Positions 12,001 to 15,000 are shown, counted from the stretch's first letter. The stretch: DNA of 64,000 nucleotides from Escherichia coli (GCF_045037415.1 NZ_CP173440.1), one strand, 5' to 3'. Program-made: the numbers.

Positions 12001-15000
12001 GCGCTTCCGGAGGGCTGAACAACAAGAAGATTTACACCACCGGGCGCTATCCGTCGTATGACATCACCAACCTAGCGGCCTTCCTGCAATCAGGCTATGA
12101 CATCAATAATCTCTTTACCCTCAACGGTGGCGTACGCTATCAGTACACTGAAAACAAGATTGATGATTTCATCGGCTACGCGCAGCAACGGCAGATTGCC
12201 GCCGGGAAGGCTACATCCGCCGACGCCATTCCTGGCGGCTCAGTCGATTACGACAACTTCCTGTTCAACGCCGGTCTGCTGATGCACATCACCGAACGCC
12301 AGCAGGCATGGCTCAACTTCTCCCAGGGCGTGGAGCTGCCGGACCCGGGTAAATACTATGGTCGCGGCATCTATGGTGCTGCAGTGAACGGCCATCTTCC
12401 TCTAACAAAGAGTGTGAACGTCAGCGACAGCAAGCTGGAAGGCGTGAAAGTCGATTCTTATGAGCTGGGCTGGCGCTTTACTGGCAATAATCTGCGCACC
12501 CAAATCGCGGCCTACTATTCGATTTCTGATAAGAGCGTGGTGGCGAATAAAGATCTGACCATCAGCGTGGTGGACGACAAACGCCGTATTTACGGCGTGG
12601 AAGGTGCGGTGGACTACCTGATTCCTGATACTGACTGGAGTACCGGAGTGAACTTCAACGTGCTGAAAACTGAGTCGAAAGTGAACGGTACCTGGCAGAA
12701 ATACGATGTGAAGACAGCAAGCCCATCAAAAGCGACAGCCTACATTGGCTGGGCACCGGACCCGTGGAGTCTGCGCGTGCAGAGCACCACCTCCTTTGAC
12801 GTGAGCGACGCGCAGGGCTACAAGGTCGATGGCTATACCACCGTGGATCTGCTCGGCAGTTATCAGCTTCCGGTGGGTACACTCAGCTTCAGCATTGAAA
12901 ACCTCTTCGACCGTGACTACACCACTGTCTGGGGGCAGCGTGCACCACTGTACTACAGCCCGGGTTACGGCCCAGCGTCACTGTACGACTACAAAGGCAG
13001 GGGCCGAACCTTTGGTCTGAACTACTCTGTGCTGTTCTGACCGGTATTCCTTTACAACAAAGGTACGCTGATATCAACATGGCCGCTGACAGCCAAGTTG
13101 ATATCATATAATACACGACATAATCTGTAGTCAGGGAGGATAGACTCTTTACTGACTACAGATTAAGATTATGTCGTATTCCGTGCTCATTTCCTCAAAA
13201 AAATACAAGAAAAGAATTAGTATTCTAACAAAAAGTGAAATAAATTGTATCAAACTCCCTCTTTTAATCCTGTTGAGTAAATCAGCTTTTGCAATAGGAT
13301 TGAAAGAGTGTGAGTGGAATCTCTTCCGGATACTCGTTACCACCGTGGCTAGAATATCTACGGCTGCGGGCCAGTAATAGATTAAGTGATAACAGCTGTC
13401 TGGAAATGTAGGGGCGTATCCACTAATCATAATGGGGTTCTACGCCGGAACCGCCGAAATTTCCGTCACTGCCAGTGAAACCTCTTTTCCATCCACGAAT
13501 CCGTTACCTGTAACACTGACTGACATCGTGTGATATTCAGGATGTTACTGGTAAGTTGAGCCAGTCATGCTTTTTTTAGTTTTGGAAAAAAGCAATAAAA
13601 ACAAATGAATATATCTCATCCCTCTTATTTTTTATAAATATTCCTTGCCTACCTATCTATTGATAGGTAGGATGCAGGTATACTTAATCACCAGGAGAGA
13701 TCGTCCATGAAACGCATTATCCATACCACCGTTGCCGCACTTGCTCTTACCCTGGCCAGCTACGCAGCCGCCGCAGATGAAATTAACCGTCAGGACGCTG
13801 CGGGTCTGATGCCGTCAGGCCATATTTCTGCCGGCAATCTGTCAACGCTAGACGAAGTGACCGCTGCGCTTAAAGCCAGAGTAGAGCAGGCCGGGGCCTC
13901 TTACTTCCGTATCACTTCGCTTGACGGTAAAAATAAATTTTACGGAACCGCCGTTATCTACCGCTAAGGTACGTATACAGTGCCCTTCATACATAACAGG
14001 AAAATGCGGTGTCTACTTACGACAAAATACTTCGCCTGACGGATACCTTAATTCAGCAACGCGGATTTCTGGGTTTCAGCTATGCCGACCTGGAAAAAGA
14101 GATTGGTATCAGAAAAGCCAGTATCCACCACCATTTTCCCGGGAAAACCGATCTGGGTTTGGCCTACTGCGAATACAAAACAGGGGTGTTTAGTCAGCTT
14201 GATGCCGCCCTCCATGATATTCCTCCGGGGGTACAACGCCTCAGGGCGTATCTCGACGCGTTTGCCGGCTGTGCAGAGAGAGAGGAAATGTGCGGCGTTT
14301 ACGCCATGCTGTCGGACAGTCACCAGTTCTCCTCTGAACTGCAGAAAGCTGTCAGCTGCCTGGCACAGACGGAGATGCTAATACTGAAAAACGTCCTTGC
14401 TTCCGGGCAGAAAAGCGGCGAGCTCAGGTCTGTCGTCCCTCCTGATGAGCTTGCCATCATTGTCTGCTCCGCACTGAAGGGCGCGCTGATGCTGAACCGG
14501 ATCCCTCCTCATGATGCCTATACCGGTGCCGTTGACGCTTTAATGATGATGCTTGATGCCCGTACCTGATTTCTGACAGGGCATAGTTTTTTGCCTGGAG
14601 AATAGAATGAAAAATTTTTTCAAAAGTTTTATCCGCTCAGACAACGACATGGTTATTCTTCGCCTGTCGGTTATCACGATATTTATGTTGTTCGGGACCT
14701 ATAAATGGTTTGATTTTGAAGTGATGGCCCTCGAACCTATTATTTCCTCAACATGGCTGAATATCCTGTATATCCTCTTTGGTGTCCACGGGGGGAGCTA
14801 CTTCCTCGGCGTAATGGAAACGCTTACCTTTCTGGCACTGATTATCGGTTTCTTCAGACCTGCTGCCGGCGTGCTGGGGGATATCATCGTTATCGTCACA
14901 GGTATCACCACACTGAGTTTGCTGCCACAACTGGGGAAAATTGACAGCTTCATCATAAAAGATGTTCTGTTAATCGGTGCCGGTGCTGTCCTGCTGAAAC

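What the first reader, a model, noticed from the sequence alone, without database searches (positions are those of the whole stretch)
13648..13671. Perfect 10-bp palindrome positioned as an operator before the BhsA-like stress gene
CCTACCTATC-TATT-GATAGGTAGG lies 35 nt upstream of the ATG and just upstream of a -10-like TATACT. A TetR-family regulator gene follows the stress gene. This is a plausible binding site for a dimeric regulator.
Basis: seen in the sequence. Interest (0 to 1): 0.3.

Follow-up and report, generated by a model that had tools for sequence, protein, structure and literature searches.

The report
Operator of a bleach-sensing repressor
The palindrome is real and is almost certainly the DNA site where the neighbouring TetR-type repressor, a close relative of the hypochlorite-sensing RcrR of uropathogenic E. 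coli, shuts off its own stress operon on a Klebsiella virulence plasmid: an ordinary kind of switch, though its exact sequence had not been written down before.

Summary
CCTACCTATC-TATT-GATAGGTAGG lies at 13648-13671, 35 nt before the ATG of a DUF1471/BhsA-like gene, and a TetR gene follows.

On its own the palindrome is not significant: about 0.8 such repeats are expected per 64 kb. Comparison with other loci settles the matter.

- **Locus identity.** The window is a pLVPK-type Klebsiella virulence plasmid. The three genes are orthologues of UPEC CFT073 rcrA-rcrR-rcrB (65, 74 and 79% identity). RcrR there is a published HOCl-sensing TetR repressor.
- **Motif enrichment.** ACCTAYC-N4-GRTAGGT occurs 63 times in 80 loci that encode relatives of this TetR, against 1.25 expected. 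Of these, 42 lie within 200 nt upstream of the regulator gene.
- **Position in the promoter.** In RcrR-clade loci only TTG, C-TA-C, GGTA and one T are invariant. This places the box in the 17-nt spacer of a promoter, TTGCCT (13645-13650) and TAGGAT (13668-13673).
- **Link to published binding.** The published 433-bp EMSA fragment contains the CFT073 counterpart of the site.

Its -10 (TATACT) is probably wrong. The element is a new member of a known kind and of modest interest.

The parts
13648..13671 (.). Perfect 24-bp dyad (10-bp arms, 4-bp centre): the proposed operator ('RcrR box') of the operon
   Evidence: There are no mismatches to the family motif ACCTAYC-N4-GRTAGGT at 13651-13668.
13651..13668 (.). 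18-bp core of the box (ACCTATC TATT GATAGGT). The half-site centres are 11 bp apart, about one helical turn.
   Evidence: Logo from 41 upstream sites: positions 2-7 and 12-18 carry 1.05-2.0 bits each. The invariant columns C-TA-C and GGTA in 10 RcrR-clade loci fall here.
13645..13650 (+). Predicted -35 hexamer TTGCCT. Its last 3 nt overlap the left arm of the palindrome.
   Evidence: TTG is invariant in 10 RcrR-clade loci. TTGACA-like hexamers abut the box in many distant loci. This is a prediction; no transcription start site (TSS) data are available.
13668..13673 (+). Predicted -10 hexamer TAGGAT, 17 nt after the -35. Its first 4 nt lie within the right arm.
   Evidence: T, A and the final T are invariant in 10 loci. 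The family consensus here is TAGATT. This is a prediction.
13693..13697 (+). Shine-Dalgarno AGGAG, 9 nt before the ATG
   Evidence: Read directly from the sequence.
13707..13967 (+). rcrA orthologue: an 86-aa YdgH/BhsA/DUF1471 protein with a signal-peptide-like N terminus
   Evidence: Pfam PF07338, E = 4.5e-14. 65% identical to CFT073 c3599/RcrA.
14009..14569 (+). rcrR orthologue: a 186-aa TetR-family repressor with Cys54, Cys88, Cys95 and Cys153, plus an extra Cys117
   Evidence: Pfam TetR_N and TetR_C_13. 74% identical to CFT073 c3600/RcrR, with only 5 differences in residues 1-60 and an identical stretch 33-44 (GIRKASIHHHFP).
14607..15035 (+). rcrB orthologue: a DUF417 inner-membrane protein
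   Evidence: Pfam PF04224. 79% identical to CFT073 c3601/RcrB.
15119..15948 (+). CMD (AhpD-like) gene at 15119-15394 and DM13 gene at 15445/15457-15948. They are probably co-transcribed as an extension of the operon.
   Evidence: Pfam hits. The same DUF1471-TetR-DUF417-CMD-DM13 order occurs behind a perfect consensus box in an 88%-identical relative (L086/L087). No + strand terminator is predicted. Co-transcription is an inference.
15997..16917 (+). 306-aa protein ending in a DUF1471 domain. It is on the same strand and may be the end of the transcription unit.
   Evidence: A similar large DUF1471 gene follows the TetR gene in L088/L089. That it belongs to the operon is an inference.
13547..13576 (+). 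Terminator-like hairpin plus T-run about 70 nt upstream of the box. It would insulate the promoter from upstream transcription.
   Evidence: Consensus scan only.

Best explanation
The palindrome is the operator of the RcrR-type TetR repressor encoded at 14009-14569. A repressor dimer places its two helix-turn-helix heads on the half-sites ACCTATC and GATAGGT, whose centres lie one helical turn apart. The box fills the 17-nt spacer between a -35 (TTGCCT) and a -10 (TAGGAT) and overlaps both, so bound repressor keeps sigma-70 RNA polymerase off the promoter. This silences rcrA-like, rcrR-like (negative autoregulation) and rcrB-like, and probably the CMD/DM13/DUF1471 genes behind them. By analogy with UPEC RcrR, reactive chlorine species (HOCl, chloramines) oxidise conserved cysteines (Cys54/Cys95), the repressor leaves the DNA and the operon is derepressed. 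Shown here: the sequence, its conservation, its placement relative to conserved promoter-like hexamers, and the orthology. Shown in the literature for the orthologue: binding to the upstream fragment, HOCl-triggered release and derepression in a deletion mutant. Inferred: binding to exactly these bases, the promoter hexamers and start site, the extent of the operon, and HOCl responsiveness in Klebsiella.
For: (1) The motif ACCTAYC-N4-GRTAGGT with at most 2 mismatches occurs 63 times in 477 kb of 80 loci encoding relatives of this TetR, against 1.25 in simulated sequence. Of these, 42 lie within 200 nt upstream of the regulator gene, 5 at -500 to -201 (in front of a preceding small gene), and 10 in the intergenic region just after it. 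(2) In 10 RcrR-clade loci (54-88% protein identity) the upstream region averages 51% column identity. The only invariant columns are TTG, C-TA-C, GGTA and one T, that is, a -35, the two half-site cores and a -10. The logo of 41 sites shows the same layout. (3) The orthology figures are RcrR 74%, RcrB 79% and RcrA 65% to CFT073 c3600, c3601 and c3599. The deletion primer for c3599 in Table S4 matches the locus. Residues 33-44 (GIRKASIHHHFP) are identical. (4) PMC9600549 reports that RcrR binds the rcrARB upstream fragment and is released after N-chlorotaurine treatment. Deleting rcrR raises c3599 by 2^6.5 and c3601 by 2^5.2. Its EMSA primers map to L084 37067-37499, which contains the aligned CFT073 site at 37441-37458. 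(5) An 88%-identical relative has a perfect consensus box, TTGACT-ACCTACCttctGGTAGGT-AGTCT, 46 nt before its DUF1471 gene. (6) The E. coli K-12 nemR promoter has the same architecture: TTGCAC, the TAGACC-GACT-GGTCTA dyad, then TACACT.
Against: There are no binding data for this plasmid's protein or for this exact site. The published EMSA used a 433-bp fragment and did not narrow the site, and a weak second match (3 mismatches) lies in that fragment at L084 37246. CFT073's own site is a poorer dyad, with 3 mismatches. The proposed promoter scores only 8 of 12 against consensus and was not reported by the promoter scan, and no start-site data exist. The 80 comparison loci were retrieved with peptide patterns that include the segment GI[RK]KASIH[HY] (residues 33-40, inside the TetR_N DNA-binding domain), so they are selected for the same DNA-reading residues. 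This explains the shared motif, but it also means the sample is not an unbiased set of TetR loci. Only 46 of the 80 loci have a hit at the 2-mismatch threshold.
Confidence: 0.85

Rival explanations
1. The dyad is an operator, but it is bound by a different regulator than the adjacent TetR. Candidates are a chromosomal TetR paralogue with the same recognition helix, or Fur, given the neighbouring aerobactin genes.
For: Several Enterobacterales, including K. pneumoniae and K. aerogenes, carry 57-61% identical paralogues (P0047, P0052, P0059, P0072). Residues 33-44 (GIRKASIHHHFP) are nearly invariant across the subfamily, so cross-binding is conceivable. The locus sits next to iutA.
Against: The motif travels with the TetR gene across phyla, usually within 200 nt of it, which is the signature of autoregulation. 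The best Fur-box match in 13630-13700 has 8 of 19 mismatches. In UPEC, deleting rcrR alone derepresses the operon.
Confidence: 0.07
2. The palindrome acts at the RNA level, as a hairpin in a leader or read-through transcript (a terminator, attenuator or stabiliser), rather than as a protein-binding site.
For: As RNA, the stretch 13640-13710 folds around a 10-bp stem at -21.3 kcal/mol, z = -2.64 against shuffles.
Against: No U-run follows the stem; the next bases are AUGCAGG. Related loci conserve specific bases (CCTAC/GTAGG) rather than showing compensatory stem changes, and several sites are asymmetric and would weaken a stem. The conserved -10 overlaps the 3' arm, so the dyad would lie upstream of the start site.
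Confidence: 0.04
3. It is a chance palindrome with no function.
For: Perfect 10-bp inverted repeats with short spacers are expected about 0.8 times per 64-kb window. A lone half-site copy at 29238 looks like chance.
Against: There is a 50-fold enrichment of the motif in related loci, with positional clustering. The half-site cores are invariant where the flanks have diverged.
Confidence: 0.03

Closest known systems
rcrARB operon and its repressor RcrR of uropathogenic E. coli CFT073 (c3599-c3601; Sultana et al. 2022, PMC9600549)
   Same: The gene order is the same: DUF1471, TetR, DUF417. Protein identities are 65, 74 and 79%. Cys54, Cys88, Cys95 and Cys153 are conserved. The upstream regions align, with the box and promoter-like hexamers in the same place. 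Both loci are linked to aerobactin genes.
   Different: This copy is plasmid-borne in Klebsiella rather than in a chromosomal pheV island. Its dyad is perfect (24 bp), whereas CFT073 has 3 mismatches in the 18-bp core. It carries an extra Cys117. CMD, DM13 and a large DUF1471 gene follow on the same strand, and these are absent from CFT073. The papers I could read define no operator sequence.
NemR and its operator at the E. coli K-12 nemRA-gloA promoter. The name 'NemR box' is from my memory of Umezawa et al. 2008; the sequence was read here.
   Same: NemR is also a TetR-family, cysteine-based sensor of electrophiles and HOCl that represses its own operon. The layout is identical: a -35 hexamer, then a dyad with 6-7-bp arms and a 4-bp centre filling the spacer, then a -10 (TTGCAC-TAGACCGACTGGTCTA-C-TACACT). 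Both dyads share the inner ACC-N4-GGT.
   Different: The outer half-site bases differ (TAGACC against CCTACC). The proteins are only 31% identical over the DNA-binding domain. The 2022 paper states that NemR uses different cysteines.
Classical TetR/tetO-type repression by promoter occlusion
   Same: A homodimeric helix-turn-helix repressor binds a short dyad that overlaps the core promoter and is released when the sensor domain is modified.
   Different: The inducer here is presumed to be cysteine oxidation rather than ligand binding. The regulator gene lies inside the operon instead of being divergently transcribed.

Membership tests
TetR-family autoregulatory operator | Short inverted repeat with dyad symmetry, 15-30 bp in size | tested here: met
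   A 24-bp perfect dyad with an 18-bp conserved core.
TetR-family autoregulatory operator | Lies in the promoter region of the operon that contains, or is adjacent to, a TetR-family gene | tested here: met
   The TetR_N and TetR_C_13 protein is encoded at 14009-14569, 358 nt downstream and in the same orientation. The same offset is seen in Cedecea L006.
TetR-family autoregulatory operator | The site co-varies or co-occurs with orthologous regulators in other genomes | tested here: met
   63 hits against 1.25 expected, with 42 within 200 nt upstream of the homologue. The half-site cores are invariant in 10 clade members.
TetR-family autoregulatory operator | Overlaps the -35/-10 elements or the start site, so that binding occludes RNA polymerase | tested here: inconclusive
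   Conserved TTG...N17...TA...T hexamers flank and overlap the box. They are predictions (8 of 12 to consensus, not called by the scan), and no start site is known.
TetR-family autoregulatory operator | Specific binding by the cognate repressor | not testable with these tools
   Only indirect evidence exists: CFT073 RcrR shifts a 433-bp fragment that includes the aligned site.
rcrARB / RcrR regulon | Gene order rcrA (DUF1471), rcrR (TetR), rcrB (DUF417) on one strand | tested here: met
   CFT073 has the same order.
rcrARB / RcrR regulon | The regulator is orthologous to RcrR and has the conserved cysteines Cys54, Cys88 and Cys95 | tested here: met
   74% identity over the full length. C54, C88, C95 and C153 are present. 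The paper reports that Cys54, Cys88 and Cys95 are conserved across species.
rcrARB / RcrR regulon | Derepression by HOCl or chloramines through thiol oxidation | not testable with these tools
   Known only for CFT073.
NemR operator | TAGACC-N4-GGTCTA dyad recognised by NemR | tested here: not met
   The half-sites here are CCTAYC/GRTAGG. NemR is only 31% identical over the DNA-binding domain. The architecture is the same but this is not a member.
Intrinsic terminator | G+C-rich hairpin followed directly by a T-run | tested here: not met
   The stem is followed by ATGCAGG, and the terminator scan did not list it.
Fur box | Match to GATAATGATAATCATTATC | tested here: not met
   The best match in 13630-13700 has 8 mismatches of 19.

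The most novel reading that the evidence does not exclude
The box defined here (RCCTACC-N4-GGTAGGY set inside a TTGnnn-N17-TAGnnT promoter) may be the common operator of a very large TetR subfamily with a nearly invariant recognition helix (GIRKASIHHHF) and a conserved Cys95. The subfamily reaches from Enterobacterales to Methylobacterium, Acidobacteria and Bacteroidota. That would make a whole class of thiol-based oxidant or electrophile regulons predictable from sequence. On the hypervirulent-Klebsiella plasmid it would place an extended reactive-chlorine defence module under HOCl control next to aerobactin and rmpA2. That module is rcrARB plus the CMD gene (possibly the biomarker peg-589), DM13 and DUF1471 genes, and it could contribute to neutrophil resistance.
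Probability: 0.35. Interest if true: 0.5.

Novelty: new member of a known kind. Interest (0 to 1): 0.3.

Why it matters
The result gives a nucleotide-level operator and promoter model for RcrR-type repressors. The papers I could search describe that operator only as lying somewhere in a roughly 440-bp fragment.

It also shows that pLVPK-type hypervirulence plasmids of K. pneumoniae carry an rcrARB-like reactive-chlorine defence operon. At least 609 plasmid records hold this locus at 99% identity or more. The operon has extra redox genes and is tightly linked to aerobactin.

This is a concrete, testable link between a virulence plasmid and survival of the neutrophil oxidative burst. The motif can also be used to predict regulons of a widespread TetR subfamily.

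As a regulatory element, however, it is a conventional TetR operator.

Tried and rejected
Rejected as the main -10. A -35 at 17 nt would be TCTATT, TTGATA lies only 13 nt away, and the hexamer is not conserved.
- **Second operators in the window.** The pattern CCTAYC-N4-GRTAGG with 2 mismatches gives 5 hits against 4.85 expected. Apart from the site itself, these look like chance. The exact half-site copy at 29238 is solitary.
- **Genome-collection scan.** Closer relatives had to be fetched one by one.
- **Literature search by sequence words** (ACCTACC, GGTAGGT, TetR). It returned nothing relevant.
- **Looking for the NemR box in PMC3739934.** It failed, so the sequence was read directly from K-12.
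- **First supplement search for EMSA primers.** It found nothing. Reading Table S4 directly gave the primers.
- **Fur box, terminator and chance readings.** All rejected.
- **Solved structures.** The closest are uncharacterised TetR proteins (2g7s, 3qbm, 3on4), none with DNA. No structure prediction was run because it would not bear on the site.

Full report
**1. Observation**

The sequence at 13648-13671 reads CCTACCTATC TATT GATAGGTAGG. The repeat finder reports it as a 10-nt, 100% complementary inverted repeat with 4 nt between the arms (I5).

The next ORF on the + strand starts with ATG at 13707, 35 nt after the palindrome. It encodes an 86-aa protein with a YdgH/BhsA-like (DUF1471) domain. 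A 186-aa TetR-family ORF follows at 14009-14569. TATACT is present at 13679-13684.

The palindrome alone is not statistically remarkable. First-order Markov simulations of the window give 0.81 perfect inverted repeats with arms of at least 10 nt and a spacer of at most 10 nt, and half of the simulated windows contain at least one. The real window has five independent ones.

**2. What the locus is**

The 2-kb region is 100% identical to pLVPK-type virulence plasmids that have been moved into E. coli by conjugation. The annotated neighbourhood is iucB-iucC-iucD-iutA, then DUF1471, TetR, DUF417, CMD, DM13, a large DUF1471 protein and a GAF pseudogene, then rmpA2. In the plasmid collection, 609 records carry the locus at 99% identity or more, and 580 of the 624 matching records are Klebsiella.

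A 74%-identical copy of the first three genes sits in 741 E. coli chromosomes, including the pheV island of CFT073. A literature search for DUF417 plus TetR led to the rcrARB operon of UPEC. In that operon c3599 is rcrA, c3600 is rcrR (a TetR-family repressor that senses HOCl) and c3601 is rcrB (a DUF417 inner-membrane protein that detoxifies HOCl). The deletion primer for c3599 in Table S4 of that paper matches the CFT073 locus I retrieved.

Identities between the plasmid and CFT073 proteins are RcrR 74%, RcrB 79% and RcrA 65%. The plasmid regulator keeps Cys54, Cys88, Cys95 and Cys153. The paper reports the first three as conserved across species, and C54S or C95S substitutions impair DNA binding.

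**3. Comparative evidence for the operator**

I collected 80 loci encoding relatives of the regulator from one representative genome per species and searched them for the dyad.

- **Enrichment.** The motif ACCTAYC-N4-GRTAGGT, allowing 2 mismatches, occurs 63 times in 477 kb against 1.25 in simulated sequence.
- **Position.** Of these hits, 42 are within 200 nt upstream of the regulator gene and 5 are at -500 to -201, where a small DUF1471 gene precedes the regulator as in the window. Another 10 are in the intergenic region just behind the regulator, and only 6 are elsewhere.
- **Spread.** The loci range from Proteus, Providencia, Cedecea and Buttiauxella to Comamonas, Methylobacterium, Bradyrhizobium, Acidobacteria and Bacteroidota.
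- **Caveat.** The loci were retrieved with peptide patterns that include GI[RK]KASIH[HY] (residues 33-40, inside the TetR_N domain). Residues 33-44 (GIRKASIHHHFP) are accordingly nearly invariant among them. That explains why the DNA motif is shared, but it makes the sample biased. Only 46 of the 80 loci have a hit at this threshold.
- **Closer relatives.** Relatives fetched individually behave the same way. An 88%-identical regulator in a DUF1471-TetR-DUF417-CMD-DM13 cluster has the perfect consensus box ACCTACCttctGGTAGGT 46 nt before its first gene. The 78% and 81% relatives have boxes with 2-3 mismatches.

**4. Anatomy of the promoter**

A logo of 41 upstream sites shows the information-rich core (C2 C3 T4 A5 C6 C7 ... 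G12 G13 T14 A15 G16 G17 T18). A TTGaca-like hexamer ends immediately before position 1, and T-A-g-A-T-T occupies positions 18-23.

An alignment of ten RcrR-clade upstream regions (54-88% protein identity) has a mean column identity of 51%. Its only invariant columns are TTG (window 13645-13647), C-TA-C (13653-13655 and 13657), GGTA (13666-13669) and T (13673).

This defines a promoter TTGCCT (13645-13650), a 17-nt spacer, and TAGGAT (13668-13673). The operator fills the spacer and overlaps both hexamers. The predicted start is near 13680, and AGGAG at 13693-13697 serves the ATG.

I regard it as lying around the start site rather than being the -10. Whichever -10 is correct, the dyad lies within the core promoter, so the mechanistic conclusion does not depend on this point. 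The promoter elements remain predictions. They score 8 of 12 against consensus, and the generic scan did not list them.

**5. Link to experiment**

The EMSA primers Pc3599-fw and Pc3599-rev map to L084 37067-37499, a 433-bp fragment ending at the rcrA ATG. The CFT073 counterpart of the palindrome is GCCTACCaatcAGAAGGT at 37441-37458. It lies inside that fragment, in the position that aligns with the window's dyad.

The paper reports three things:

- Reduced RcrR binds this fragment with high affinity, and binding is reduced after N-chlorotaurine.
- HOCl induces the operon 35- to 105-fold.
- Deleting rcrR raises c3599 by 2^6.5 and c3601 by 2^5.2, the two largest changes.

Neither that paper, nor the 2023 and 2026 follow-ups, nor a 2026 review gives an operator sequence. 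The words 'palindrom' and 'inverted repeat' do not occur in the 2022 main text. Papers outside the searchable library cannot be excluded.

**6. Mechanism**

The most likely mechanism is classical TetR-type promoter occlusion with negative autoregulation, relieved by thiol oxidation of the repressor. I put this at about 0.85.

The half-site centres are 11 bp apart, which suits one dimer contacting two successive major grooves. This follows from general knowledge of TetR-DNA complexes and was not tested.

The window's dyad is longer than the family core because of its 4-nt periodic CCTA-CCTA-TCTA structure. Whether the outer CCT/AGG adds affinity or allows a second binding register is open.

The E. 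coli K-12 nemR promoter, read directly, has the same layout: TTGCAC, then TAGACC-GACT-GGTCTA, then TACACT. It even shares the inner ACC-N4-GGT. However, NemR is only 31% identical over the DNA-binding domain, so this is an analogue within the family, not the same box.

**7. Rivals**

- **Chance** is excluded by the enrichment and by the footprint in the alignment.
- **An RNA hairpin** is thermodynamically possible (-21.3 kcal/mol, z = -2.64). But no U-run follows it, the conservation is of specific bases rather than of pairing, and the dyad lies upstream of the predicted start.
- **A Fur box** is excluded, with 8 of 19 mismatches.
- **Binding by a paralogous TetR** with the same recognition helix cannot be excluded and might add cross-talk.

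**8. Wider picture**

In the plasmid, CMD, DM13 and a 306-aa DUF1471 protein follow rcrB on the same strand with gaps of 48-83 nt and no predicted terminator. The CMD-DM13 extension recurs behind a consensus box in an independent relative, so a longer operon is plausible.

Outside the RcrR clade only Cys95 is conserved (79 of 83 loci), while Cys54 and Cys88 are specific to the clade. Downstream targets there include short-chain dehydrogenases and an uncharacterised 313-aa ORF that I did not scan against protein families.

**9. Verdict**

The element is a conventional TetR operator belonging to a known, recently characterised system. The added value is the nucleotide-level box and promoter model, and the recognition that hypervirulence plasmids carry this reactive-chlorine defence operon. 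Novelty: new member of a known kind. Interest: 0.3.

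Noticed in passing
window 13616-13641: The block TCATCCCTCTTATTTT..ATAAAT just upstream of the predicted -35 is almost identical between the Klebsiella plasmid and CFT073. 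It is better conserved than the operator itself, although the flanks differ. It could be an UP element or a site for a second regulator.
   Followed up: partly
window 10839-13040 and 13707-15035; L082 5115-10216: The rcrARB-type cassette is linked to aerobactin genes in two different contexts: after iutA on the Klebsiella plasmid, and before shiF-like MFS/iucA in a UPEC island (strain 4/0). In CFT073 it lies between pap and iha. This suggests the rcr and aerobactin modules travel together.
   Followed up: partly
window 15119-15394: This is a small CMD (AhpD-like) gene right behind rcrB. The hvKp biomarker peg-589 is described in the literature as a putative carboxymuconolactone decarboxylase family protein, so this may be that gene. 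Sequence identity to peg-589 was not checked.
   Followed up: partly
window 17008-17414: A GAF-domain gene is split over two frames. The public record annotates it as frameshifted, with an internal stop and truncated. It is on the same strand as the rcr-like cluster. From memory it resembles free methionine-R-sulfoxide reductase, which would fit an oxidant-defence island.
   Followed up: no
window 17929-18564 (- strand) and about 9480-10813: In the identical public record, rmpA2 and iucD are annotated as frameshifted pseudogenes. I did not check whether the window carries the same frameshifts.
   Followed up: no
window 13069-13106, 13121-13165, 13259-13308: There are three further inverted repeats in the gene-poor stretch after iutA, one with perfect 14-nt arms 17 nt apart. 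Part of the 13100-15100 query, presumably this stretch just after iutA, matches 890 E. coli records at 95-99% identity. Their function is unknown.
   Followed up: no
window 7699-7719, 24173-24201, 27573-27596, 35351-35378: These are four other perfect inverted repeats with arms of at least 10 nt. The one at 24173 (AAAAAGGCCGCC...GGCGGCCTTTTT) looks like a bidirectional terminator. The others were not examined.
   Followed up: no
window 59467-59482: The palindrome CCCACCATTAGGTGGG turned up as a 2-mismatch match to the box pattern. It is probably unrelated and its context was not examined.
   Followed up: no
L083 2974-6343 and L004: A 58%-identical TetR on an E. coli plasmid (and on a contig labelled as a Collinsella MAG) precedes a DUF2282-DUF692-DNA-binding-DoxX cluster. 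A variant box, ACTTATCtattAGTAGAT, lies in the intergenic region before DUF2282. From memory, this gene set resembles bufferin-type copper-binding RiPP clusters.
   Followed up: no
L008 2098-3561: In Providencia alcalifaciens the DUF417 gene is divergent from the TetR gene. A perfect box, ACCTACCaaaaGGTAGGT, lies about 95 nt before DUF417. The box therefore follows the DUF417 gene when the gene order changes.
   Followed up: partly
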